Virus record (IMG/VR): IMGVR_UViG_3300044844_001309 | Span: 1 to 53,356 of that record | Strand: one strand, 5' to 3' | Length of the DNA stretch: 53,356 nucleotides | DNA from: a virus | Lineage: Duplodnaviria > Caudoviricetes | Part shown: positions 3,085 to 51,086 of the stretch, piece by piece | How positions within the stretch are numbered: position 1 is the stretch's first letter | Layout: each line of letters begins with the position of its first letter | Program-made: the position numbers and the translations under genes | Notes under the pieces: generated by a model | What the model saw: the letters and a program-made list of their open reading frames with translations, nothing else | The model's database searches: none | Told to the model about the DNA's origin: nothing

Positions 3085-3707
3085 AGCCGAACCTCCACGC
3101 TCGCGCTGGCGCGCGTCAGCGTCTCCGTCGTTTGCAGGGCGGCCCTGCCCAGCACCAGCCGCTCGCCGCCGCCTACGCTGACGAGCGCGGGTGTGGCCGT
3201 GGCCTCCGCCGGCAGGCCCACGGCCGAGCTGGCGCGCGCGGGTAGTTGCTCCGTCTCGCTCGCCAGCGTCAGGGTCGGGCTGCCTACCTCGGCGGCCTGG
3301 GTGGCCAGCGCGGTGAACTCGAGCACGTGCGCCTGCACCAGCGTCGCCGAGGCCAGCGCGGCCGCCGGAGCTGCGAGCGAGGACGCCGCCATGCCGATGT
3401 TCTGCGCCATCGTCGGCGACGACAGCGCGGCCGCGGGCGCCTCGAGCGCGGTCGCCGTGAGCGCGTGGACCTGCGACAGCGCCGCGGACCCGACGCTAGC
3501 CTGAGGCGCCGACAGCGACGCGGGCGCGAGGGCGTGCGCCTGCGTGAGCGCGGACGTGCCCAGCACCGCCTGAGGCGCCGACAGCGACGCGGGCGTGAGG
3601 GCGTGCGTCTGCGTGAGCGCGGACGTGCCCAGCACCGCCTGAGGTGCCGCCAGCGGCGACGCGGTCAGTGCGAGACTGGCCGCGCCTCTGAGCAGGAGCA
3701 GCAGCAC
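3081..3707 (-). CDS. Repetitive Ala/Ser/Thr-rich tail-associated protein
   Basis: 23-aa tandem repeats such as ALTPASLSAPQAVLGTSALTQAH. Confidence 0.55.
   Translation of the reverse strand: MLLLLLRGAASLALTASPLAAPQAVLGTSALTQTHALTPASLSAPQAVLGTSALTQAHALAPASLSAPQASVGSAALSQVHALTATALEAPAAALSSPTMAQNIGMAASSLAAPAAALASATLVQAHVLEFTALATQAAEVGSPTLTLASETEQLPARASSAVGLPAEATATPALVSVGGGERLVLGRAALQTTETLTRASASVEVRL
3500..3670. repeat. About 69-bp coding tandem repeats
   Basis: cctgaggcgccgacagcgacgcgggc and tgcgtgagcgcggacgtgcccagcaccgcctgagg recur at 69-nt spacing. Confidence 0.8.
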
Positions 3708-28634: not shown

Positions 28635-29109
28635 CCTCGTCCTCGTCGCGCGCCTGGCCCGTGAGGCGCCCGCGCAGGTCCGTGATCATCGCGTCCAGCG
28701 CCAGCAGGTTGTCGGTCTTCTGCGTCACGCTGAATGCCTCGGCCGCGTCCAGACCCATCAGCTTCGCGCGGCGCTGCTGCACGCGGATGATCGACAGCGT
28801 CGCCGCGGCCAGGCCCTCACCGTCGCCGGCGGCGTGCGCGGCCTCGGCCTGCGCGAGGCCCATGCGCTCGAGCTCGTCCAGGGTCGCGAGGTCGAGCTGG
28901 CGCAGCTCCTCCGCGCTCTCGGCCGTCGCCTCCCGGAGCGCCGTGAGCGCGCGCTCCACCGCCTTGCGCGCGCCGCTCTCCTCGGCGTACCCGCACTCCG
29001 CCGCGATCACGCGGTAGGGCAGCCGCTTCTTGCGCAGGTCCACCGCCTTGGCGACACGCTCGGCCTCGGTGAGCACGGCCGCGCCGGTCTTGCTTCTGCT
29101 ACGCGCCAT
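28615..29109 (-). CDS. terS: Terminase small subunit
   Basis: N-terminal HTH (LPYRVIAAECGY); RRAKLMGLDA; directly upstream of terL. Confidence 0.8.
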   Translation of the reverse strand: MARSRSKTGAAVLTEAERVAKAVDLRKKRLPYRVIAAECGYAEESGARKAVERALTALREATAESAEELRQLDLATLDELERMGLAQAEAAHAAGDGEGLAAATLSIIRVQQRRAKLMGLDAAEAFSVTQKTDNLLALDAMITDLRGRLTGQARDEDEGGAEPR

Positions 29110-29926
29110 CGGAACCCCTCAGGTCGGATTGTAGCACGGTCTCTCGTGGCGGCTCGACACGACCAACGCCCAGCCGCGTCCGCTCCGCTTCATCTCGGGC
29201 CCGGATGGCCCGTATCTCGTCGCGGTAGTAGGTCCACTCGTGCTCCACGCGGCCGCGCTCGGCGCCGCGCTCCTCGGCCAGCATGTCCACGCGCAGGTGC
29301 TCGCGGTCGAACAGCCCGCCCATGGTCATCGCGTAGATCGGGTGGACCGGCAGGTCGTGGGCTTCCAGGTAGGCAAACACGTCCTTCGTCGTCCACCAGC
29401 CGAGGGGCATCGAGCCACTGGCCGAGTTCTCGCCGAACTTGCACATGCTGATGCGGCGCACCCGGGACTCTTGCGCGCGCACGCCGGTGATGTGGCCCGG
29501 TCCGTGACGGCGCACCGCCTCGGCCAACCCGTGGCGGAAGTACAGCGACGACGCGGCGGTCAGCTCCCGCGTGTAGTCGTACTCCACCACGATCTCCTCG
29601 TAGCGGAGGCCGGGGTGCTGCTGGAGAAACGCGTCCCGCACGCGCTCGCAGTCGGGGTTGAACCACCACGAGCCCTTCACCCAGACGAGCGGGAGATCGA
29701 TCTCGTGGCGAAGCAGCCAGGCCAGGTGCGCGACCACGGTGGAGTCTTTGCCCCACGAGACGGAGACGTAGGCGCGCGTCGTCGCGACGAAGTCACGGAT
29801 GGCCTGAAGGGCACGCGCGGGCTTCTTCCCGCGCGCGAGCATGCGCCCCAGGATGGCGTCCGTCCGCGCGTGCGTCGCCCACACCTCCAGGTCACGCGCC
29901 GTGTGCCGGGGGCTGGCGATCAGCAT
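29099..29926 (-). CDS. cysH: CysH-like / PAPS-reductase-family protein associated with type IV-B Cas
   Basis: PP-loop VSVSWGKDSTVV; TGVRAQESRVR; PLGWWTTKDVFAYL. Confidence 0.85.
   Translation of the reverse strand: MLIASPRHTARDLEVWATHARTDAILGRMLARGKKPARALQAIRDFVATTRAYVSVSWGKDSTVVAHLAWLLRHEIDLPLVWVKGSWWFNPDCERVRDAFLQQHPGLRYEEIVVEYDYTRELTAASSLYFRHGLAEAVRRHGPGHITGVRAQESRVRRISMCKFGENSASGSMPLGWWTTKDVFAYLEAHDLPVHPIYAMTMGGLFDREHLRVDMLAEERGAERGRVEHEWTYYRDEIRAIRARDEAERTRLGVGRVEPPRETVLQSDLRGSDGA
29128..29136 (-). promoter_or_regulatory. Possible extended -10 promoter (TGcTACAAT) for the packaging operon
   Basis: TGCTACAAT about 18 nt upstream of the terS ATG. Confidence 0.35.
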
Positions 29927-30206
29927 GCCGCCCCCGCCGCTTCCACCCGTCGTGCTCGGGCAGCACCGTCACCAGGTCGGGGCGCTCGCCCGGCCCATGC
30001 GGCACCACAACAAATCGCAGCCGGTGCGGCCGGCCCGTGCGCCAGACCTCCCCGGTGCGCCCGTCCTCGAGCGTCTTGACCTTGGTCCGATGCGCCACCA
30101 GCGACAAGCGGATGAGTCGGCCCAAGGCCTGGCTCGGTGTGAGCTCGGGCGCGACCCGCTCCCGGTAGCGGTCGACGGCGTGGCTCGTGATGCGCCATGG
30201 TCCTAC
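29892..30206 (-). CDS. RelE/DUF4258-like (BECR fold) small protein; start codon unclear
   Basis: WRITSHAVDRYRERV...LRFVV...DLVTVL; no in-frame ATG/GTG near the expected start. Confidence 0.45.
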   Translation of the reverse strand, partial: VGPWRITSHAVDRYRERVAPELTPSQALGRLIRLSLVAHRTKVKTLEDGRTGEVWRTGRPHRLRFVVVPHGPGERPDLVTVLPEHDGWKRRGRHADRQPPAHGA

Positions 30207-30754
30207 GAGCCCCCGACCTTCGTGAGCCGCCAGTGCCCCCGGGATGGGCGCGTCACCACCCGCTCGCCCATCGCCACCAGCGTGTGCGTCACCGTCGACG
30301 TCGATTTGCCCACGTCGTCCGCCAGCTCGCGCGTCGTCGCCTCTCCACCACGCGCCTTCAGCGCCTGACGTAGCGTCTCCGCCGCCACACCCGACCCCGA
30401 GGCGTGCACCATCCGGCCCGGCGTCGGTGCTCGGGGCGCCAACACCGGCCGCGTAGGGCGCGGCCGCGCATCCACCGCAGGCAGCACGGTGCCCAGAGTC
30501 CGGACCTCGGCCGGCCGCAGGCGCGCGAGTACGATCTCCAGCGCCTGCCGCGCCTCGTCCTCCGGCACGCCCTCGATCGCCTCGCCCAGGCGCACGATGA
30601 GCGCGCCGAACTTCTGGACCTTGAGGGTGCGGCTCGTGAGCTCCACCGTCTTGGCCGGGGGCGCCGCCACCGCCAGGCCCTGCCCCGCCACGTAGCGCCG
30701 CCCGCGCGCAGTCTCCTCGCCGATCACGTCCTGGATGTCGCTGTCGGTCGTCAT
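30203..30754 (-). CDS. Protein with C-terminal winged HTH
   Basis: ATTRELADDVGKSTSTVTHTLVAM...RPSRGHWRL; AGGAG RBS. Confidence 0.7.
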   Translation of the reverse strand: MTTDSDIQDVIGEETARGRRYVAGQGLAVAAPPAKTVELTSRTLKVQKFGALIVRLGEAIEGVPEDEARQALEIVLARLRPAEVRTLGTVLPAVDARPRPTRPVLAPRAPTPGRMVHASGSGVAAETLRQALKARGGEATTRELADDVGKSTSTVTHTLVAMGERVVTRPSRGHWRLTKVGGS

Positions 30755-31494
30755 GCCGTCTTCTCCTGTGCCGCGTGTGCGGCGGTCTCATGCACCCGAA
30801 CCATGCCGAAGCCGAAGCCTCGGTGCCGGCCGATGCCGCGCAGCATGGCGGTCTGCCGCTGCTCGTAGGTCGACCACTGCGCGTAGCCGGTGACCTCGAC
30901 CGCCGTGGTACTCCACGACAGCGCCCGGCGTCCCCGCGCAGGGCCTCGCTGCGTCTGGCGCACCAGCGTCACGTCCCAGCTGCGGGCGTGGTCCACCAGC
31001 ACGAGCGGCGCGCCCGCGGACTCCAGGCGCTGCGTCACCCACGCTACCCGTGCGTCCAGCGCCTCGGCCGGGGTGAGCGTCCGCCCGTGCAACTGGGCCT
31101 GTGTCACCACGTCGACTTCGGCCCCCGCGGCGTAGCCCCCGAGCGGCTTCGACAGCCGCACGACGGGCAGCGCCACCACGGCGATCGGTGTCCGCAGATC
31201 GTGCACCAGCTCGCCGAGCCCGACGCACTCGATCTTGAGCGTCGACGTCGCGGCCCGCACCTCCGCTGAGGCGTGCAGGTTGCGCCAGCCGAGCCACTCC
31301 GCGGGCTGGTACATCTCGGCCTCGACCGTCGGGCCCACCCGCGTGAGGTGGAACGTCTGCGGCGGGACGTCGAACGCCTCCGCCAGCAGCACGTGCATCA
31401 GGTAGCCGATGTCCGAGAGCGGGTAGCCGCGCGCCCGAGCCAGCGTCTCCAGCCCACCGCGCGCGACCGACAGGCGGATGAGGTACAGGCTCAC
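30751..31494 (-). CDS. cas6: Cas6 endoribonuclease (Cas6e/CasE-like)
   Basis: N-terminal LYLIRL, DIGYLMH..LAEAF; C-terminal G-rich loop RGIGRHRGFGFGMV. Confidence 0.85.
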   Translation of the reverse strand: MSLYLIRLSVARGGLETLARARGYPLSDIGYLMHVLLAEAFDVPPQTFHLTRVGPTVEAEMYQPAEWLGWRNLHASAEVRAATSTLKIECVGLGELVHDLRTPIAVVALPVVRLSKPLGGYAAGAEVDVVTQAQLHGRTLTPAEALDARVAWVTQRLESAGAPLVLVDHARSWDVTLVRQTQRGPARGRRALSWSTTAVEVTGYAQWSTYEQRQTAMLRGIGRHRGFGFGMVRVHETAAHAAQEKTA

Positions 31495-32186
31495 GCGGCC
31501 TCCGGGATCACGCATACCTCCTCGGCGGCGCGATTCCAGTACGGGTAGCTCAGCACCGCGTAGGCACGCGTGGCCTCGGGCCGCACGTCGGGCCACCCAT
31601 CGGGCAGCGGGCGCATCGGCCAGCCGTCGCGCACAAGCGGGAACGTCTCACTCCACGGCGCGCACCCCTCGACCGTCCAGCGCAGCACCGCACCACGGCC
31701 CACCGCCCGGCGCTTGCCGAGGTAGCCCACGTACTGAAGCAGATCCGCTACAGCCGCGCCGTCGCCCACGGCCCACCACGTAAGCCGGTCGTCCTCCATG
31801 TGCCGTGTCTCCAGCGGCAGGCGGTAGGTTTTCTGGGCGCCGGCCGCGATGTTGATGCGCGTGAACTTCTCCACCGCCATCTCCTGCGCCTCGGCCAACG
31901 GGAAGCGGCGGTTGATCCACACGTGCTCTCGCTCGTCGACGTTGCCCACTGACGTCGTGCACAGGTGGAATCGTCCGCCCTCAGCGCGCGCAAGCGGGAT
32001 CTCGATCGGCCGCAGCTCGGACACGCGCAGCGCGGGCGGCAGGTCCTGGACCTGGGCGACCGCCCACGCGAGGAGACCGTCCAGGCGCACCTCGGCCGAG
32101 GCCAGGCCGGCCCGCAGGGTGGCCGTGATGCGGAGCGGCTGGCGCGCGTCGCCCGCGGCCAGCCCTGCCGTGACCACCTCGGTCAC
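31491..32186 (-). CDS. csf3: Type IV Cas5-family subunit Csf3
   Basis: PLRITATL, LDGLLAWA, GAQKTYRLPL, WWAVGD...LL, LGKRRAVGRGAV..W, RPLP, PYW. Confidence 0.85.
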   Translation of the reverse strand: MTEVVTAGLAAGDARQPLRITATLRAGLASAEVRLDGLLAWAVAQVQDLPPALRVSELRPIEIPLARAEGGRFHLCTTSVGNVDEREHVWINRRFPLAEAQEMAVEKFTRINIAAGAQKTYRLPLETRHMEDDRLTWWAVGDGAAVADLLQYVGYLGKRRAVGRGAVLRWTVEGCAPWSETFPLVRDGWPMRPLPDGWPDVRPEATRAYAVLSYPYWNRAAEEVCVIPEAA

Positions 32187-33208
32187 GCGTCCACCCCGCG
32201 CAGCAGCGCTACGATCGCCTCGCGCCGGTCGGCCACGTGCGCGCGGAAGATCTCACCGACCCCCACATCACCGAACGTCATCGCCGTGGCGCTCTCGGAC
32301 GGGCGCGCGATCGCGCACGACCAGCCCTGCACCGGCTTGATGTAGCCGTGGCCCGTGCCTGACTTCCCGCCGACGCGGGCGTGGGCGAGGAAGGCCGAGA
32401 GCATCAGGCGGAAGGTGTCGCGCTCGAGCTCCGAGTGAGTGCGCGCCTCGACACCCCAATAGAACAGCGACCCGGTGGCAATCGTCTCGAAGCTCCGGGG
32501 CATCATGGACGACTTGCTGTGCTCCTTGCCCACGGCGTCGTCCTCGGCGGACGCCGTCTCGCTGGCCAGGAGCCGCCCCTCGACCGCGGCGCGCGAGGCC
32601 GGCAACAGCAGCTCCCGCTTCTCGGGTACCAGGGTCGGGTCCATGCGGACGCGGACGACCTCGTCGATGTGGGCGCGGCAGGTGTCCTCGGGCCCGGCGT
32701 ACGTCTCGGCCCAGGCGCGCACGCGGTCGGGCACCACGCGGGCCGACTCGCGGCAGATGAGCACCGCGCGCTCGACAGCCATCTTGCCCGGGATGACGCG
32801 GTTCTCCGCGCACCCGCCCAGCAACTCCATGCTGGGGATGAGCTCGCAGAGGCGCCGGTAGTGGTCGAGCTTGACCACACTGCCGTCGCCGTTACCCGTG
32901 ACCATGCCGCCCGCAAACAGCAGCCGGAGGGCCGCCTCGGTGAGCCGGGACTCCAGCAGCCCCGCTGCGTCAAGAAACACGTAGCTGGCCGCCTCGCGCA
33001 GCTTGTGACGCATGGTGTCCCCGGTGATGATCGGCACGCGCGCAAAGCCGCCATCCACCTGGCGGACCTTCTCTGTCATCGCCAGCGCGGCGTTGCCGAT
33101 GGTCTCGCCATGGTGCGCGATCGGGCTGGCTGCCTCCAGCGCGACCTCGTAGCGGAGCACCTCGAAGCGGCGCGCGGGGGTGGGGTTCGTGGTTTCGGTG
33201 GTCTGCAT
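32183..33208 (-). CDS. csf2: Type IV Cas7-family backbone subunit Csf2
   Basis: LEAASPIAH, VPIITGDTMRHKLR, LLFAGG, PSMELLGG...IPGKMAV, C-terminal VGGKSGTGHG. Confidence 0.9.
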   Translation of the reverse strand: MQTTETTNPTPARRFEVLRYEVALEAASPIAHHGETIGNAALAMTEKVRQVDGGFARVPIITGDTMRHKLREAASYVFLDAAGLLESRLTEAALRLLFAGGMVTGNGDGSVVKLDHYRRLCELIPSMELLGGCAENRVIPGKMAVERAVLICRESARVVPDRVRAWAETYAGPEDTCRAHIDEVVRVRMDPTLVPEKRELLLPASRAAVEGRLLASETASAEDDAVGKEHSKSSMMPRSFETIATGSLFYWGVEARTHSELERDTFRLMLSAFLAHARVGGKSGTGHGYIKPVQGWSCAIARPSESATAMTFGDVGVGEIFRAHVADRREAIVALLRGVDA

Positions 33209-33218
33209 GGTGCTCTCC

Positions 33219-33707
33219 TCAGGCCTTCGGCAGGGTCATGGTGATGGACTCGAAGTGCTCGCGGTCGACGGCGTCACGCGCCTCCCGGCGCTTCTCGACG
33301 GCCTCCCGCGCGAGGGCCACGAGCAGTCCGCGCTCCGCCTCGATCAGGCCCAGGAACCGGTCCGGTGTCAGGACGCCCACGCTGCACAGCCCGTCGACGT
33401 GACGCACCAGCGCCAGCATGGCCGAAGAGGTCGCCTTGCTCGGCCCCGGCAGCCGGAGCCCCCGCGCCACCAGCGTCGGCCACTCCATCGGCCCGGACGA
33501 CCGCTTCGCCGCACTGACCATCCGCGTCTCGATCTGCTCCCACTGCTTCAGCGCGCTTCCGCCGCCCGCGAGAAACTGCTGGCGCCACGCCAGCATCAGG
33601 TCCACCACCAGCAGGCGCACCGTCTCCAGTTCCACCGCCGAGATCGTCGGGGGCCGCGCCTTGAACATGCCCGCCGGCGCGGGGCTTCCGTTGCTGCTTT
33701 CGCTCAC
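33219..33707 (-). CDS. cas11: Type IV-B small subunit (Cas11-like)
   Basis: All-helical, about 160 aa, between csf1 and csf2; GAGGAG RBS before the GTG. Confidence 0.7.
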   Translation of the reverse strand: MSESSNGSPAPAGMFKARPPTISAVELETVRLLVVDLMLAWRQQFLAGGGSALKQWEQIETRMVSAAKRSSGPMEWPTLVARGLRLPGPSKATSSAMLALVRHVDGLCSVGVLTPDRFLGLIEAERGLLVALAREAVEKRREARDAVDREHFESITMTLPKA

Positions 33708-34485
33708 GCTTCTGCTCCTCTTTCTTCGCCGCGGTCGCGGCCTTCTCGCGCGCCATGCGCGCCTGCACCTCGACTTCGTCACGCTGGGCCAGCCATAGCG
33801 CGAGCGCGAACCACGTCCCGCCCCGCAACGCCCGGCCGTATCGCGCCTCGAAGGCCTCGATGAGCGGCCGACACAGCCCGTACGCGCGCGCCGTGTACGT
33901 GCCCAAGCCGACCTCCTCCTTAGTCGCGCCCGACGTCAGCATCACCACGAGGTCGTCGATGATCGCCCAGCCCTCGGGCCCCGGGAGCACCACCTCGGTC
34001 TCCTCGAACAGCACGCGGCCGCGCGTCGTGCCCGGCAGGTTCAGCGGGGTCCATTGCAGGACGTGCTTCTGGCCGCTGTCGGCGATGGCCGCGAACCACG
34101 CCCCGCGCTTCGGCCGCCGGAGGAACGCGAGGATCGCAGGCTTCTCGCCCTTGCTCGCGTTGATGTACCGCGGCTCGGCGCCACCGTCGTAAAGGTGTGA
34201 GTAGTTGCGGTACGACCCGCCAAAGATCTTGCCCTCTTTCGGGGGCCGGCCCGGCACTGGGACCGTGCGCTGGGCGAAGTAGACGCAGCTCTCGCACACG
34301 TGCGTCCCGTCGACGTAGCGGACGCGGTTCTGGCCAACAAAGCCCGAGCCCATCCAGTCCTCGCGCACCATGCCGCGGGTGAGCGGCCCGGCGCACACCC
34401 AACACAGCCCCGCAACCGGCGCGCAGTCAGCCACCGCTGGAGAGCCGAGTTCGGCGTGGAGCACCTGCGCCGCTGTGAGAGCCAC
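33274..34485 (-). CDS. csf1: Type IV large subunit Csf1 (Cas8-like); conserved part ends near 33710
   Basis: Zn finger CWVC...VCESC, RNYSHLY, WFAAIADSGQKHVL..TPLN. Confidence 0.85.
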   Translation of the reverse strand: MALTAAQVLHAELGSPAVADCAPVAGLCWVCAGPLTRGMVREDWMGSGFVGQNRVRYVDGTHVCESCVYFAQRTVPVPGRPPKEGKIFGGSYRNYSHLYDGGAEPRYINASKGEKPAILAFLRRPKRGAWFAAIADSGQKHVLQWTPLNLPGTTRGRVLFEETEVVLPGPEGWAIIDDLVVMLTSGATKEEVGLGTYTARAYGLCRPLIEAFEARYGRALRGGTWFALALWLAQRDEVEVQARMAREKAATAAKKEEQKRERKQQRKPRAGGHVQGAAPDDLGGGTGDGAPAGGGPDAGVAPAVSRGRRKRAEAVGADRDADGQCGEAVVRADGVADAGGAGAPAAGAEQGDLFGHAGAGASRRRAVQRGRPDTGPVPGPDRGGARTARGPRAGGRREAPGGA

Positions 34486-34491
34486 GAGTGC

Positions 34492-34520
34492 AGCGCCTCA
34501 CCCGGATGACGCGCGGTCAA
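34492..34520 (-). promoter_or_regulatory. Possible leaderless promoter of the cas operon
   Basis: TTGACC begins 35 nt upstream of the csf1 GTG; weak -10; no RBS. Confidence 0.35.
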
Positions 34521-34708
34521 GAGGCCTGTGGGTCTGAGGCCTCGACGCGTCGCGCTCGCCACGCCGCGAGGTCGACGACCTCCGCCACCTGCGGCCGCGC
34601 ACGGCGCTCGGGCTGGAGGCGCTCCAGCAGCGCGCGCCAGAGCTCGGGCGGGACGTCGGCCAGGTGGCGCACGGGGCGCCGGCGCGGGAACGGCAGCACG
34701 CGGCCCAT
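34517..34708 (-). CDS. Hypothetical protein
   Basis: MGRVLPFPRR...AEVVDLAAWRARR. Confidence 0.5.
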   Translation of the reverse strand: MGRVLPFPRRRPVRHLADVPPELWRALLERLQPERRARPQVAEVVDLAAWRARRVEASDPQAS

Positions 34709-35178
34709 CACCCTGCCCTCCGCGCAGCTCGAGCCTCGGCCCGGAACGCGTCGATCTCGCCCTCGCTCACCTTGTGCCCCGCCGCGATGCGCGACAGGAG
34801 CCACCGCGTCGTGACGTGGTTGACCTCGACCTCCAGCGGGGAGAGCGAGGCGCACGCGGCGAGCTGGCGGTCCTGCTCGCGCTGGGCCTGCGCCCGCCGG
34901 CGCTCGGCGCGGACCTCGTCCATCGCCTCGACCAGGTCCCCGAGCGTGACCCAGCGGTCTGTCAGTCGCTCCGCGACCCGGCCGACGCCCTCTTGCGCTG
35001 TGGCCACGTCCCACGGCCCGGCCATGAGGCGCCGAAGCCAGAGCTTCGACGCGCTCGACGGGCCGGCCTTTGTGCCCGCGGCCTTGTCGCCCTCGATCAC
35101 CAGCAGCGCCCGAGCCCCCGGGACCGCGGCACCGATCAGCAGCGAGAGCACGCCTCGCGCTTCCGCTTCGGACATCAT
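34708..35178 (-). CDS. Replication accessory protein (possible helicase loader)
   Basis: Directly downstream of the initiator; helical. Confidence 0.4.
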   Translation of the reverse strand: MMSEAEARGVLSLLIGAAVPGARALLVIEGDKAAGTKAGPSSASKLWLRRLMAGPWDVATAQEGVGRVAERLTDRWVTLGDLVEAMDEVRAERRRAQAQREQDRQLAACASLSPLEVEVNHVTTRWLLSRIAAGHKVSEGEIDAFRAEARAARRAG

Positions 35179-36362
35179 CGCGACACCTCCGTCGGGTCCA
35201 GCGGGGCCAGCGTCTCGCTCGGCCGCATGGACCACTCGCCTTCGAGAAACATCTCCACCGAGTCACCCGGCGTAGGTACCGCACGGGCGTAGCCGGCCGA
35301 CGTCGGGCGGAGCACGAGCGCGCCCTGCGGCGGCGGGTCCGGGTCGTCCGGCATCGGCGGCACCGGCCGGGCCTCGAGCGTCCACGCGACCATGGCCTCC
35401 ACGGCGTCCTGCTGGGCGTTGCGGCGGGGGGCCGCCGTCGCCGTGCGGGCGGGGGCGCGCATCGCCTCCTTGTCCTGCTCACGCGTCAGCCAGCGCACGG
35501 CGAAGCGGTGGCCGTTGGAGCGCGGCCGCTCGGCGGGGTTGGCTTTGAGCCACGCGACCATCCGCGCGAGCTGGGCCCGCACGTCGACGGCCGGGTAGGC
35601 CTCGGACCACTCGCCCACGTCCGCCTCGGTCACCGTCTCGGTCCGCGTGCCGATGAGCGGAAGGACCACGACCACGGGCGAGGTCGTTCCCCGAACGGCG
35701 GGCGGCGTGCCCGCCGCTTCGGCGGGTCGCGCCGCGTCCTGCGCCGGCACCTCTGCTTGAGAAAGAACTACTGTTCCTCTCTGCTCCTCTCCTCTCCTCT
35801 CCTCTCTAGAGCACGGTGGGGCCACGGTGGCCCCACCGTGGTCCACGCGTGCGCCACCGTGGTCCACGCGTGCGCCACGCACCGGCACGCGTGCGCCACC
35901 GTGGTCCACGCGTGCGCCACCGTGGTCCACGCGTGCCGCACTCTGGCTCACGCGTGACGCACGCGGCTCTGTTTTGGCGGCTTTCTCGTCTTCCACGGAA
36001 GCCACCCGCGTGGCCTTTGCCGCGGCGCGTCGTTCGCGCTCCGAGGCGGCTCGTCGGTAGGAAGCAGCTCGCTCGCTCCACCCGTGGACCTCCAACGACC
36101 CGTCATCGGTGGTGCGGTCAAGCCAGCGGGAGGTCACGAGGGCGGCCACGAGCCGGCCGTCCTCGCCGGTCCACTCGAGCACGGCCTCGAGTTCCGCGTC
36201 GGAGATGCCGTCGAGCATGCCGCTGGGGCGTGTCTGGAGGACCCACGCCCAGAGGTCGGAGATCACGCCGATCGCCTCGCGTCGCGAGACCCCGAGCTCG
36301 CGGGCGAGCCGAAGCGTTTTGTGGTGTCGGGGGAGGCTGGCCTCCCACTGTAGGTAGCTCAT
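35175..36362 (-). CDS. Phage replication initiator / replisome organiser
   Basis: HHKTLRLARELG...LWAW...LEVHGW N-terminus; REERRGEE linker; YPAVDV...AWL..NP...RF..RWL C-domain; internal iterons. Confidence 0.8.
   Translation of the reverse strand: MSYLQWEASLPRHHKTLRLARELGVSRREAIGVISDLWAWVLQTRPSGMLDGISDAELEAVLEWTGEDGRLVAALVTSRWLDRTTDDGSLEVHGWSERAASYRRAASERERRAAAKATRVASVEDEKAAKTEPRASRVSQSAARVDHGGARVDHGGARVPVRGARVDHGGARVDHGGATVAPPCSREERRGEEQRGTVVLSQAEVPAQDAARPAEAAGTPPAVRGTTSPVVVVLPLIGTRTETVTEADVGEWSEAYPAVDVRAQLARMVAWLKANPAERPRSNGHRFAVRWLTREQDKEAMRAPARTATAAPRRNAQQDAVEAMVAWTLEARPVPPMPDDPDPPPQGALVLRPTSAGYARAVPTPGDSVEMFLEGEWSMRPSETLAPLDPTEVSR
35833..35936. repeat. Five tandem 21-bp iterons (one variant); likely replication origin
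   Basis: ccaccgtggtccacgcgtgcg at 35833, 35854, 35896, 35917 plus a variant at 35875; next to a pyrimidine tract. Confidence 0.8.
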
Positions 36363-36472
36363 CGCCACGTCCCCCAGCGCCGCAGCGCCCACGCGAGCAC
36401 GGCCACCAGCTGGCCAGCGAACAGCAGCAAGGCCCCGAGGACCATGAAAAGCAGAGCTTCCAGCGGGGTCAC
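36359..36472 (-). CDS. Small membrane peptide
   Basis: 37 aa, hydrophobic; coupled on both sides. Confidence 0.45.
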   Translation of the reverse strand: MTPLEALLFMVLGALLLFAGQLVAVLAWALRRWGTWR

Positions 36473-49332: not shown

Positions 49333-49683
49333 TCACCCCCCACCCCCCACAACGCCCACGCCCCACTCCGCCAGCGCCAACTCGCGCGCCTTCTTCGCCG
49401 TGTCGCAGCCGTGCTCCAGGTGCCAGGCCACGCGCTGCGCTAGGAACGCGGTCTCGCCGCTGAGGTCGGCGATGCGCTGGCGCAGCGTCGCGTCTGCCGC
49501 CCGGTCGCGCATCATCATCGCGTTGGCGACACGCTCGCTCACGCTGGCATTCGCCGCGGCCACGCTGGCCTTCATCGTGTCGCGCTCCGACTCCAGGTCG
49601 GCGATGCGCTGGCGCGCGTGCCTCAGGTCGCGGCGCATGGTGTCGACCACGTCGGCGCTGTAGACCTTCTCCCCGCCGCTCAC
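49333..49683 (-). CDS. Hypothetical coiled-coil protein
   Basis: RQRIADL occurs twice. Confidence 0.45.
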   Translation of the reverse strand: MSGGEKVYSADVVDTMRRDLRHARQRIADLESERDTMKASVAAANASVSERVANAMMMRDRAADATLRQRIADLSGETAFLAQRVAWHLEHGCDTAKKARELALAEWGVGVVGGGG

Positions 49684-49964: not shown

Positions 49965-51086
49965 CTACTCGCTAAAAGATATTCCGCCACCGAAGCGCAG
50001 CCGCAGCTGCTCGGGCTCGGTGACGGGCGCCGGTGCGATCTCGCCCGCGAACGGGATCCGCTCGACTTCCGCGGCGATCTGGCTCCACTCCGTCCGCGAG
50101 TAGCCCTCGACCACGTCCCGGCTCCGGGCGTGGGTCACTTGCCGGATGAGCCCCGGCTCACACCGTGCGGCGCGGGCGGCTGTGAGGAACGTGTGCCGGA
50201 GCGCGTGGGGTGACCGACCCTTGCGCAGCCCCAGCACGGCCAGGTCCTGCCGCATCCGCGCCGCGGCATTGTCGCCGCGCACAGGGGTGCCGTTGCCTGT
50301 GGGCACCAGCAGGTCCTCCCCGCGCGGGATGCGGCCGTGCCGACCGGCCCAGCCGAGGGCGTGCCACCAGGTCAGGCCGCGGGCGAGGGTCGAGTGGACC
50401 GGGACCCGGCGCACCGTCGCGGTCTTCGTCGCGCCCATCCGCCGCTCGCGGCAGTCGAACGACCGGGCCACGAACAGCTCGAGCCCGCCCACCGAGCTCC
50501 GCCGCAGGTCCGACCAGCGCAGCGCGGCGACCTCCCCGATCCGCATCCCCGCCATGCCGCACAGTCCCCACAGCACCCGCCGCTGGGCAGGCACCCGAGG
50601 GTCCGAGACCAGCTGAGCCAGCTCGTCCAGCGCGAACCAGAACCCCGCCCGCCACTCCGGGTCGGCGTCCGCATCCGCCGGGAGGTCGGCCGGCCCCAGG
50701 ATGCACGGCGTTGAGGGGATGATGCCGTCCACCACCGCGTCCCGCAGCACCCAGCTCAGCGTCGCGTAGGCGTGCCGCACCGTGCGCGGCGCCAGGTCCT
50801 CGGCCAGCCGCGCCACCCAGACCCGCACCCACGCGGCCGTGATGTCGGCCAGCGGGACGCCCGCGAAGGCCGGCCGCGCGTAGCTCTCCAGCCGCTGCCG
50901 GTCCGTCCGTAGCGAGCGCGGACGCACCTGAGCCCGCCTCGCCAGCCACCGATCCACGTACACGCCGAAGGTGCAGTCGGGGGCCGCCGTCGGCGCCGAA
51001 AGGCGCGCCAGCTCGGCAGCGGGCACACGAGGAGAGCGAGAACGCATGAGCGATCTTCCTCCGAGGGCGCACGTCTGGTGCGTCAA
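49965..51086 (-). CDS. int: Tyrosine integrase
   Basis: Catalytic set GMRIGEVAALRW (R), TKT (K), HALRHTF (HxxR), VTH, EGY; adjacent to a tRNA-derived att core; start may be 51047. Confidence 0.93.
   Translation of the reverse strand: MTHQTCALGGRSLMRSRSPRVPAAELARLSAPTAAPDCTFGVYVDRWLARRAQVRPRSLRTDRQRLESYARPAFAGVPLADITAAWVRVWVARLAEDLAPRTVRHAYATLSWVLRDAVVDGIIPSTPCILGPADLPADADADPEWRAGFWFALDELAQLVSDPRVPAQRRVLWGLCGMAGMRIGEVAALRWSDLRRSSVGGLELFVARSFDCRERRMGATKTATVRRVPVHSTLARGLTWWHALGWAGRHGRIPRGEDLLVPTGNGTPVRGDNAAARMRQDLAVLGLRKGRSPHALRHTFLTAARAARCEPGLIRQVTHARSRDVVEGYSRTEWSQIAAEVERIPFAGEIAPAPVTEPEQLRLRFGGGISFSE

What the first reader, a model, noticed from the sequence alone, without database searches (positions are those of the whole stretch)
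29099..34485. Phage-encoded type IV-B-like Cas effector operon that also carries Cas6, between the replication and packaging modules
Seen in sequence: a closely coupled run csf1 - cas11 - csf2 - csf3 - cas6 - wHTH - RelE-like - cysH, with clear motifs (Csf1 Zn finger and SGQKH; Csf2 GGKSGTGHG; Csf3 LGKRRAVGRG; Cas6 GIGRHRGFGFG; CysH SWGKDS). There is no cas1/cas2, DinG or Cas3. Established: subtype IV-B is defined by csf1/cas11/csf2/csf3 plus cysH, typically lacks both Cas6 and an array, and has no settled function. Inference: a IV-B module with its own Cas6e-like nuclease in a complete temperate phage is an atypical variant. It may be an RNA-guided, non-cutting system used for counter-defence, competition with other elements, or targeted modification via CysH.
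Basis: partly seen in the sequence, partly recalled or inferred. Interest (0 to 1): 0.92.

Follow-up and report, generated by a model that had tools for sequence, protein, structure and literature searches.

The report
Phage type IV-B module with Cas6e
A complete temperate phage from lake water carries a genuine, array-less type IV-B CRISPR-like gene set with a Cas6e RNA-cutting enzyme in place of the Cas6 its relatives use, which gives a testable but not unique handle on which RNA these puzzling complexes bind.

Summary
On the minus strand, 34485-29099 encodes csf1, cas11, csf2, csf3, a Cas6e-family gene, a wHTH gene, a small RelE-fold ORF and a CysH-like gene, directly upstream of terS/terL. 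The genome is a complete 53-kb phage (127-nt terminal repeat) with an integrase. Cas1, Cas2, Cas3, DinG and RecD domains are absent. So is any CRISPR array or I-E-type repeat.

The interpretation needs correcting. IV-B plus Cas6 is not exceptional in this phage clade: 22 of 35 related loci (19 of 31 distinct) carry a zinc-finger Cas6 of another family (PF10040). The window lacks that gene and has a Cas6e instead, as does one distant viral locus. One relative has a Cas12-like gene plus a six-repeat array.

The nearest relatives of the window's Cas6 sit in canonical type I-E loci. One operon was checked gene by gene, and 39 of the 81 loci examined have I-E arrays.

My best guess is that Cas6e captures host I-E pre-crRNA for the Csf complex. 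This is inferred, at about 0.35.

Two frame oddities appear without indels in contigs of four other metagenome runs: csf1 has no stop before cas11, and the small ORF has no start codon.

Earlier notes of this scan reported phage IV-B modules with Cas6 on other DNA. This is a new variant of a known kind, of moderate interest.

The parts
33274..34485 (-). csf1 (Cas8-like large subunit). The Csf1 domain is about 34485-33700. The ORF has no stop there and continues out of frame over cas11 to 33274.
   Evidence: PADLOC Csf1_0_IV 2.9e-16 over residues 16-240. NCBIfam TIGR03114 1.4e-5, below cut-off. GC3 frame switch at about 33720. Junction covered without indels by contigs of 4 runs.
33219..33707 (-). 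cas11-like small subunit. Likely start is GTG 33707, preceded by GAGGAG.
   Evidence: Sits between csf1 and csf2. GC3 0.9-0.97 in this frame. tblastn homologues at the same place in 32 of 35 related loci. Junction alignment. No HMM or PDB sequence match.
32183..33208 (-). csf2 (Cas7 backbone subunit)
   Evidence: PADLOC Csf2_0_IV 2.1e-49. The family profile's best PDB match is Csf2 of the type IV-B complex 7JHY, 3.1e-14. 650 homologues at E<=1e-5 among the 8000 candidates scored.
31491..32186 (-). csf3 (Cas5)
   Evidence: PADLOC Csf3_0_IV 9.8e-33. NCBIfam TIGR03116 9.1e-14, below cut-off.
30751..31515 (-). Cas6e-family endoribonuclease (254 aa, P0121)
   Evidence: Pfam PF08798 33.9 bits, above the cut-off of 25. 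AF2 model pLDDT 88.9. Foldseek best hit T. thermophilus Cse3 3QRP, 2.1e-10, then E. coli CasE. Profile versus PDB: Cse3 4.1e-13. Keeps all 12 invariant and 12 near-invariant family columns, including Y38 and H41.
30203..30754 (-). 183-aa protein with a C-terminal winged helix-turn-helix. The N-terminal half is unassigned.
   Evidence: No Pfam, NCBIfam or PHROG hit. ESM Atlas structure rows place residues about 110-183 on IclR/DeoR/MarR-type HTH domains; this is lead-level evidence only.
29892..30209 (-). Small conserved ORF (about 80-aa core, RelE/ParE-like fold) in the -1 frame of the wHTH gene, with no ATG/GTG/TTG start.
   Evidence: Homologues next to the Csf genes in 7 other loci. In L032 it is fused in frame to an HTH_7 domain. 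AF2 pLDDT 74; top Foldseek hits are RelE/HigB/YoeB/ParE toxins, but E>=0.048. 3 of 5 natural substitutions are synonymous in this frame. No indels in contigs of 4 runs.
29099..29926 (-). CysH-like (CasCysH-type) PP-loop protein
   Evidence: Pfam PAPS_reduct 3.3e-12. Family profile versus PDB: CysD 6.8e-7, PAPS reductases 4.7e-5 to 3.9e-3. SWGKDS loop invariant and no invariant cysteine among 14 homologues.

Best explanation
Identity (about 0.95): this is a phage-borne subtype IV-B Csf effector module. It comprises Csf1, Cas11, Csf2 and Csf3 plus a CasCysH-type PP-loop enzyme. It is expressed in the lytic gene train just before the terminase genes. It carries a Cas6e-family endoribonuclease where most relatives carry a zinc-finger Cas6.

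Mechanism (inferred, about 0.35): the complete phage genome has neither an array nor any I-E-like repeat. The Cas6 keeps the catalytic and RNA-binding signature of Cas6e enzymes that serve canonical type I-E arrays. I therefore propose that the phage Cas6e binds and cuts the repeat hairpins of the host's type I-E pre-crRNA and stays on the 3' hairpin. The Csf2/Cas11 filament, capped by Csf3 and Csf1, would then assemble on that RNA. This would divert guides away from host Cascade/Cas3 into a nuclease-free complex. The CysH-like enzyme would be the complex's effector, acting on a bound nucleic acid by adenylation-type chemistry.

Shown here: gene identities, absence of an array or repeat, the I-E kinship of Cas6, and the recurrence of Cas6 in the clade. 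Inferred: the substrate, the loading step, and any role of CysH, the wHTH protein or the small RelE-fold protein.
For: - Gene identities.
- Complete temperate phage: 127-nt terminal repeat, 100% completeness, integrase.
- No array or repeat: repeat finders. I-E stem patterns gave 0 hits. A covariance model built from 34 I-E repeats gave a best E of 0.89.
- Cas6 kinship: of 81 loci examined (80 metagenome loci retrieved with the Cas6 family pattern, plus viral L038), 39 have canonical I-E arrays downstream. Only the viral L038 has Csf genes. L099 is a full cas3-cse1-cse2-cas7e-cas5e-cas6e-cas1e-cas2e operon.
- The window's Cas6 keeps all 24 conserved family columns at only 23-29% overall identity. 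That pattern fits a retained activity.
- A processing nuclease looks needed in this clade: zinc-finger Cas6 in 22 of 35 related loci, Cas6e in the window and L038, Cas12-like plus array in L014.
- The window lacks the clade's usual Cas6 and carries an unrelated one. Such a replacement is easier to explain if the substrate is supplied by the host than if it co-evolves with the phage (inference).
Against: - Zhou et al. 2021 (PMC7937560, passages read) co-expressed a IV-B complex with a type I-E Cas6 and array. [quoted passage not shown] The same passage cites a negative co-occurrence of IV-B with other CRISPR systems.
- The host is unknown, so I could not show that it has a I-E system.
- The phage Cas6 is at most about 32% identical over most of its length to any Cas6e found, so its specificity may have drifted.
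- None of 1025 spacers from the I-E arrays in hand matches the phage over its full length.
- The zinc-finger Cas6 loci also show no array within 8 kb, so a non-CRISPR substrate common to the clade is equally possible.
Confidence: 0.4

Rival explanations
1. Cas6e processes a non-CRISPR structured RNA, such as a phage transcript or a host small RNA, into a defined scaffold for the Csf complex. The complex then acts in phage gene regulation or in CysH-dependent modification, independently of any CRISPR array.
For: - The solved IV-B complex binds non-CRISPR RNA (PMC7937560).
- Only 2 of 36 related loci show an array within 8 kb, although Cas6 is common.
- The accessory enzyme is swappable: CysH-like in most loci, radical SAM in L013 and L032. 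That suggests a modification role.
- The operon is embedded in the lytic gene train.
Against: - No candidate RNA was found. The genes are tightly packed.
- The only I-E-like hairpin (30771-30782, inside cas6) is at chance level (E 0.89). Its region folds no better than shuffles (z 0.49).
- The replacement of one Cas6 family by another is harder to explain if the substrate is phage-encoded.
Confidence: 0.3
2. The module is a non-specific RNA or guide sponge, or otherwise acts without defined guides. Cas6e would be only a structural or vestigial subunit.
For: Heterogeneous RNA is found in the JS623 complex. The sponge hypotheses are reviewed in PMC8175902 and PMC7038947. The sister group L003-L007 has no Cas6 within 8 kb in L004, L005 and L007.
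Against: The family-invariant Tyr and His and the G-rich loop are all retained. A confident Cas6e fold is predicted. Cas6 is kept in 22 of 35 relatives.
Confidence: 0.15
3. The cassette is decaying. The missing csf1 stop and the start-less small ORF would be lesions in a module no longer under selection.
For: csf1 runs 433 nt out of frame over cas11. The small ORF has no canonical start.
Against: - The same +1 csf1/cas11 arrangement occurs in 29 of 29 distinct loci, and cas11 has its own Shine-Dalgarno sequence and start.
- Contigs of four other runs cover both junctions with no indels.
- 6 of the 9 substitutions in TerS, CysH and Cas6 are synonymous. In the small ORF, 3 of 5 are synonymous in its frame (one of the 5 also lies in CysH, where it is synonymous).
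- All core motifs are intact.
Confidence: 0.08

Closest known systems
Subtype IV-B CRISPR-Cas, e.g. the Mycobacterium sp. JS623 Csf complex (PDB 7JHY; PMC7937560)
   Same: csf1-cas11-csf2-csf3 plus a CysH-like gene. No array, no adaptation genes, no helicase or nuclease. The Csf2 family profile's best PDB hit is 7JHY Csf2.
   Different: Phage-borne, not on a megaplasmid. Carries a Cas6e, a wHTH protein and a RelE-fold ORF inside the operon. The proteins score far below NCBIfam's curated cut-offs.
Type I-E Cas6e (Cse3/CasE; T. thermophilus 2Y8W/3QRP, E. coli CasE)
   Same: Fold, G-rich loop, and the conserved Tyr/His near the N-terminus. The nearest sequence relatives lie in I-E operons next to canonical I-E arrays.
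   Different: Not in a I-E operon. No cognate repeat anywhere in the genome. At most about 32% identity over most of its length to any relative.
Phage IV-B modules with a zinc-finger Cas6
   Same: Same Csf clade (Csf2 45-57% identical; tree). Same cassette logic, with a Cas6 but no array within 8 kb.
   Different: Their Cas6 is PF10040-type with an N-terminal zinc finger. It sits upstream of csf1, between csf3 and cysH, or after cysH. The window has no such gene and has a Cas6e instead.
Type IV-A (Csf complex + Cas6/Csf5 + DinG + array)
   Same: A Csf complex combined with a dedicated Cas6. PADLOC type IV Cas6 models match weakly (4.3e-6).
   Different: No DinG and no array. Has Cas11 and CysH, which are IV-B features.
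Fuxivirus IV-B with a mini-array (Bathyarchaeia viruses, PMC10848311) and Skermania phage SPI1 (KR011061)
   Same: Virus-encoded IV-B cassettes with CysH-like genes.
   Different: Fuxivirus has a two-repeat mini-array, and the word cas6 occurs nowhere in that paper's text. SPI1 has csf1-cas11-csf2-csf3-cysH only, all annotated as hypothetical. The window has Cas6e and no array.

Membership tests
Subtype IV-B CRISPR-Cas | Csf2 (type IV Cas7) present | tested here: met
   PADLOC 2.1e-49. The family profile hits 7JHY Csf2 at 3.1e-14.
Subtype IV-B CRISPR-Cas | Csf1 (small Cas8-like) and Csf3 (Cas5) present | tested here: met
   PADLOC 2.9e-16 and 9.8e-33. NCBIfam matches are below the curated cut-offs.
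Subtype IV-B CRISPR-Cas | Cas11 small subunit encoded between csf1 and csf2 | tested here: inconclusive
   A conserved ORF of about 160 aa sits at that place in the window and in 32 of 35 relatives.
Subtype IV-B CRISPR-Cas | Associated CysH-like gene lacking the catalytic cysteine | tested here: met
   PF01507 3.3e-12. SWGKDS loop invariant and no invariant Cys in 14 homologues. That CasCysH lacks the cysteine is from PMC8175902.
Subtype IV-B CRISPR-Cas | No helicase (DinG/RecD), no Cas3, no adaptation genes | tested here: met
   0 matches in the whole genome for PF06733, PF13604, PF13538, TIGR01587, PF01867 and PF09827. Controls were positive.
Subtype IV-B CRISPR-Cas | No CRISPR array | tested here: met
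   Rfam found nothing.
Subtype IV-B CRISPR-Cas | No Cas6 (as the subtype is usually described) | tested here: not met
   A Cas6e gene lies inside the operon. The literature allows rare exceptions: 12 instances (PMC7038947). In this clade Cas6 is common.
Cas6e (Cse3/CasE, PF08798) | Cas6e fold with a C-terminal G-rich loop | tested here: met
   Pfam 33.9 bits, above the cut-off of 25. Foldseek 2.1e-10 to Cse3, TM 0.55/0.64.
Cas6e (Cse3/CasE, PF08798) | Catalytic His (with Tyr) in the N-terminal domain | tested here: inconclusive
   Y38 and H41 are invariant in the 31-sequence family alignment. Their equivalence to the catalytic Tyr/His of T. thermophilus Cse3 is recalled, not aligned here.
Cas6e (Cse3/CasE, PF08798) | Cognate I-E repeat array and I-E Cascade genes in cis | tested here: not met
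   No repeat. The neighbours are Csf genes.
RelE/ParE toxin superfamily (small ORF) | alpha-alpha-beta4 RelE-like fold and family HMM match | tested here: inconclusive
   No Pfam, NCBIfam, PADLOC or PHROG hit. The AF2 topology is H-H-E-E-E-E. The top Foldseek hits are RelE/HigB/YoeB/ParE, but at E 0.048-0.5 and TM 0.35-0.5.
Type IV-A CRISPR-Cas | DinG helicase and CRISPR array | tested here: not met

The most novel reading that the evidence does not exclude
Guide theft. The phage's own Cas6e intercepts the host's type I-E pre-crRNA and loads it into the nuclease-free Csf-CysH complex. This would disarm host Cascade/Cas3 or redirect the host's spacer repertoire to the phage's benefit. Cas6 replacement (zinc-finger Cas6 versus Cas6e) would track the CRISPR type of each phage's host. 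It would be the first mechanism assigned to subtype IV-B, and a counter-defence that works by stealing guides.
Probability: 0.2. Interest if true: 0.85.

Novelty: new variant of a known kind. Interest (0 to 1): 0.5.

Why it matters
Subtype IV-B is the main CRISPR-Cas subtype whose RNA partner and function are still unknown (PMC8175902 and PMC12669027, passages read). The usual description says it has neither Cas6 nor an array.

Here a large clade of uncultured-phage IV-B modules usually does carry a Cas6. In this complete phage that Cas6 belongs to the best-understood family, Cas6e, whose substrate class (the I-E repeat hairpin) is known. The open question therefore becomes a simple experiment: does this Cas6e cut I-E repeats, and does it load the product into the Csf complex?

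A positive result would give IV-B a guide source and point to a phage counter-defence. A negative result would point to a non-CRISPR RNA.

Tried and rejected
- blastn of the operon against GenBank phages found no match. tblastn of the CysH-like protein found none at 1e-5.
- Single-sequence search for related loci with Csf2 and with Cas6 found nothing. Alignment queries were needed.
- Cas11 profile against PDB sequences: 0 hits at E<=1.
- Complex prediction of Csf2 with Cas6: no answer (score 0.01 against a mark of 0.32). This is not evidence either way.
- The look-up of sequencing runs: no RNA holder listed.
- Covariance model of I-E repeats on the window and on L038: best E 0.89 and 0.42, both short 12-nt hairpins at chance level. 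The hairpin at 30771-30782 lies in a stretch that folds no better than shuffles (z 0.49).
- Spacer matching: 1025 spacers from the 39 I-E arrays against the window. The longest exact match is 18 of 33 nt and the longest alignment is 28 nt with 4 mismatches, so there is no credible protospacer. The first output was cut and I re-ran it with a filter.
- Exact 14-mer repeats genome-wide showed nothing array-like. The 21-nt repeat pair at 49463/49595 lies inside a coiled-coil ORF.
- Codon-shuffle test of whether the csf1 frame is kept open over cas11: individual P values range from 0.019 to 0.90 in 29 loci, compatible with chance given GC3. I therefore do not claim selection for a dual-coding tail or a Csf1-Cas11 frameshift fusion.
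- Host identification failed. TerL relatives are at most 45.5% identical and come from many host groups.
- Supplementary Data S1 of PMC7038947 lists the 12 IV-B+Cas6 loci. Supplements are closed, so I cannot say whether any of them is a Cas6e or phage case.
- Print searches for IV-B with Cas6 or Cas6e in phages returned only the papers cited here. PMC8658065 is not held.

Full report
WHAT IS THERE

The window is an IMG/VR virus record of 53,356 bases. It has a 127-nt direct terminal repeat, and CheckV rates it 100% complete. G+C is about 72% and nearly all genes lie on the minus strand. From 34485 down to 29099 the minus strand carries a tightly coupled run of genes:
- csf1: ORF 34485-33274, with the Csf1 domain ending near 33700
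- cas11: 33707-33219
- csf2: 33208-32183
- csf3: 32186-31491
- a Cas6e-family gene: 31515-30751
- a 183-aa protein ending in a winged HTH: 30754-30203
- a small conserved ORF: about 30209-29892
- a CysH-like gene: 29926-29099

The cysH stop overlaps terS (29109-28615), which is followed by terL (28634-27198).

IDENTITY OF THE PARTS

- PADLOC type IV models match Csf1 (2.9e-16), Csf2 (2.1e-49) and Csf3 (9.8e-33).
- NCBIfam's Csf1/2/3 equivalogs match at 1.4e-5, 3.9e-12 and 9.1e-14, far below their curated cut-offs, so these are divergent members. Pfam has no hit for them.
- A profile of 24 Csf2 homologues finds Csf2 of the solved type IV-B complex 7JHY as its best PDB sequence match (3.1e-14).
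- The Cas6 passes Pfam's own threshold for PF08798 (33.9 bits against 25). Its family profile hits Cse3/CasE structures (4.1e-13).
- An AlphaFold2 model of the Cas6 (pLDDT 88.9) matches T. thermophilus Cse3 and E. coli CasE best (2.1e-10, TM 0.55/0.64).
- The CysH-like protein hits PAPS_reduct (3.3e-12). In 14 homologues the SWGKDS loop is invariant and no cysteine is. This fits the CasCysH description in PMC8175902 (passages read).
- cas11 has no HMM or PDB match. It rests on position, size and a conserved family at that place.

CONTEXT

- Upstream lie a replication initiator with 21-nt iterons (35175-36392; phrog_9474 1.5e-22) and a Dam-type methyltransferase.
- Downstream lie terminase, a Mu-type portal and a MuF-like protein.
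- A tyrosine integrase sits at 49965-51086.
- 'Complete temperate phage, between replication and packaging' therefore holds.
- Cas1, Cas2, Cas3 core, DinG (DEAD_2) and RecD-type domains give 0 matches in the whole genome, with positive controls.
- No array was found by the repeat finder, TRF, my own mini-array scan or Rfam.

RELATIVES, AND WHY 'ATYPICAL' NEEDS CORRECTING

Csf2 has 650 homologues at E<=1e-5 among the 8000 candidates scored. All are metagenomic and the best is 74% identical. With an alignment query I fetched 27 IMG/VR loci and 8 MAG contigs (L003-L037). Four of these duplicate others. Nearly all have csf1-cas11-csf2-csf3 followed by a CysH-like gene.

tblastn with the window's Cas6 finds nothing in them. 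A systematic tblastn with the inserted ORF of L020 finds a homologue in 22 of the 35 loci, which is 19 of 31 distinct loci. That protein has an N-terminal zinc finger and a C-terminal Cas6 domain. L020 and L034 pass the PF10040 cut-off, and PADLOC Cas6 models match. It sits upstream of csf1, between csf3 and cysH, or after cysH.

The window has no such gene. Its sister group in the Csf2 tree (L003-L007, support 94/89) has no Cas6 of either kind in the flanks available.

A Cas6e-type gene was found in only one other viral locus, L038, in the order csf1-cas11-csf2-cas6e-csf3-small-cysH. L038's Csf2 is very distant.

One relative, L014, has a Cas12-like gene (PADLOC Cas12u1 6.6e-45) and a six-repeat array directly after the cassette. 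L032 has a five-repeat, 36-nt array 6.5 kb upstream.

In L013 and L032 a radical SAM enzyme stands where cysH usually is. L037 gives a weaker match to it.

The cassette therefore consists of a fixed Csf core and a variable accessory zone, and some RNA-processing function is usually present.

WHERE THE CAS6 COMES FROM

An exhaustive HMMER search finds 113 relatives at E<=1e-3. None except the query itself scores below 1e-30. Identity is about 32% or less over most of the length, and higher only on short stretches.

The window keeps all 12 invariant and 12 near-invariant columns of a 31-sequence alignment. These include Y38, H41 and the GxGRHRxFGFG loop, at 23-29% overall identity.

I examined 81 loci: the 80 best metagenome loci retrieved with this family's pattern, plus viral L038. 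Of these, 39 have an array 1-2 kb downstream, and only L038 has Csf genes. All 39 repeats are the canonical I-E type. L099 is a complete I-E operon by NCBIfam.

Neither the I-E stem pattern (0 hits) nor a covariance model built from 34 such repeats (best E 0.89) finds a repeat in the phage.

TWO FRAME ODDITIES, BOTH REPRODUCED IN OTHER ASSEMBLIES

First, csf1 has no stop at the end of its domain and reads on, one base out of frame, across cas11.
- The same +1 relation holds in 29 of 29 distinct loci.
- The overlap is 150-300 nt in most of them.
- cas11 has its own Shine-Dalgarno sequence and start, embedded in the conserved EKEAK-type end of Csf1.
- A synonymous-codon shuffle shows the open frame is compatible with chance at this GC3. 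I claim no dual coding.

Second, the small ORF lies in the -1 frame of the wHTH gene, just after a G5 run, and has no ATG/GTG/TTG.
- Its homologues start with Met. They occur beside the Csf genes in 7 other loci: L013, L014, L015, L022, L027, L032 and L038.
- In L032 the domain is fused in frame to an HTH_7 domain. A wHTH::small fusion made by a -1 shift is therefore a reasonable idea.
- The site is not a classical slippery heptamer (read from the sequence).

Contigs from four other lake-water runs (four studies) cover both junctions with no insertion or deletion, although they differ by up to 12 substitutions. Of the 5 substitutions in the small ORF, 3 are synonymous in its frame. Of the 4 that also fall in the ATG-led alternative frame, 1 is synonymous there.

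The small protein's model (pLDDT 74) has a helix-helix-four-strand topology. Its best Foldseek hits are RelE/HigB/YoeB/ParE toxins, but only at E 0.048 or worse. 'RelE-like' is a lead, not a finding.

HOW IT MOST LIKELY WORKS

Shown here:
- The phage encodes a full IV-B core, a CasCysH and an apparently intact Cas6e.
- The phage has no repeat for that Cas6e.
- The Cas6e's kin serve I-E arrays.
- The clade as a whole usually keeps a Cas6, and this lineage carries a different one in its place.

Inferred: the Cas6e acts on host I-E pre-crRNA and seeds Csf assembly on it, taking guides away from Cascade/Cas3. The replacement argues for a host-supplied substrate, because a phage-encoded substrate would have had to be replaced together with the enzyme.

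Against this:
- Zhou et al. 2021 found no enrichment of I-E crRNAs in a IV-B complex co-expressed with a I-E Cas6 and array.
- The host is unknown.
- The zinc-finger-Cas6 relatives also lack nearby arrays.

I put this reading at about 0.35-0.4. A non-CRISPR RNA substrate is at about 0.3, a structural or vestigial Cas6 in a non-specific sponge at about 0.15, and decay at under 0.1.

COMPARISON AND NOVELTY

Phage- and virus-borne IV-B cassettes are in print (PMC7038947; PMC10848311).

Skermania phage SPI1 carries an unannotated csf1-cas11-csf2-csf3-cysH cassette.

Earlier notes of this scan report phage IV-B modules with Cas6 on other DNA, including a zinc-finger Cas6 with a radical SAM partner. 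I reproduced that pattern independently in the relatives fetched here.

My four print searches found no description of three things:
- a Cas6e inside an array-less IV-B operon of a complete phage
- the non-orthologous replacement of the clade's Cas6
- the HTH/RelE-fold accessory pair

This makes it a new variant of a known kind. Interest is moderate, and mainly practical: the Cas6e makes the guide-source question testable.

LIMITS

- Related loci were seen only to 8 kb on each side.
- The zinc-finger Cas6 count rests on tblastn to two checked members.
- The Csf2 tree is poorly resolved, so the number of Cas6 gains and losses is open.
- No expression data were available.

Noticed in passing
window 33274-33720 (-); loci L003-L037: The csf1 reading frame has no stop at the end of the Csf1 domain. 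It overlaps cas11 one base out of frame in 29 of 29 distinct loci, by 150-300 nt in most and 433 nt here. The cas11 Shine-Dalgarno sequence is encoded in the conserved C-terminal EKEAK-type motif of Csf1. A codon-shuffle test finds the open frame compatible with chance.
   Followed up: partly
window 30190-30240 (-); L032:9957-10343: The small RelE-fold ORF has no canonical start and sits in the -1 frame of the wHTH gene after a G5 run. In L032 the same domain is fused in frame to an HTH_7 domain. Four other metagenome runs show no indel here. A -1 frameshift fusion is possible but unproven.
   Followed up: partly
L014:10562-12965: A 665-aa Cas12-like gene (PADLOC Cas12u1 6.6e-45, Cas12f 1.5e-41) and a six-repeat array of about 36-nt repeats follow directly after a IV-B cassette (csf1-cas11-csf2-csf3-cysH-small) in a viral contig.
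   Followed up: partly
L032:100-390: Five copies of a 36-nt repeat at a 72-74 nt period (not a multiple of three) lie just upstream of a phage dnaN-like gene, about 6.5 kb from the IV-B cassette. The region further upstream was not fetched.
   Followed up: no
L013:10224-11717; L032:10343-11818: A radical SAM enzyme of about 490 aa (Radical_SAM_N2 + Radical_SAM) takes the place of the CysH-like gene next to the Csf core and the small ORF. L037 has a weaker tblastn match. L013 and L028 also have an N6_N4_Mtase-like ORF after csf3.
   Followed up: partly
L001 (Skermania phage SPI1, KR011061) 32609-36242 of the record: Orf40-Orf44, all annotated 'hypothetical protein', form a csf1-cas11-csf2-csf3-cysH cassette in a cultured actinophage. 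Csf2, Csf3 and CysH matched by tblastn; Orf40 and Orf41 are assigned by position only.
   Followed up: partly
window 35822-35969: Six to seven 21-nt iterons lie inside the replication-initiator gene (phrog_9474).
   Followed up: no
They are present in the sequence. I did not test them, and there is no sign that they are Cas6 substrates.
   Followed up: no
L030-L037: The eight MAG contigs carrying this phage-type IV-B cassette are binned in seven different phyla-level groups (Pseudomonadota, Actinomycetota, Myxococcota, Acidobacteriota, Bacteroidota, Chloroflexota-type Dehalococcoidia). L036 is the same contig as the IMG/VR record L021. These bins probably hold phage contigs and are poor guides to host.
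   Followed up: no
window 3320-3655: About five copies of a 69-nt tandem repeat (23 codons) lie inside a minus-strand ORF. It is probably a repeat-containing structural protein.
   Followed up: no
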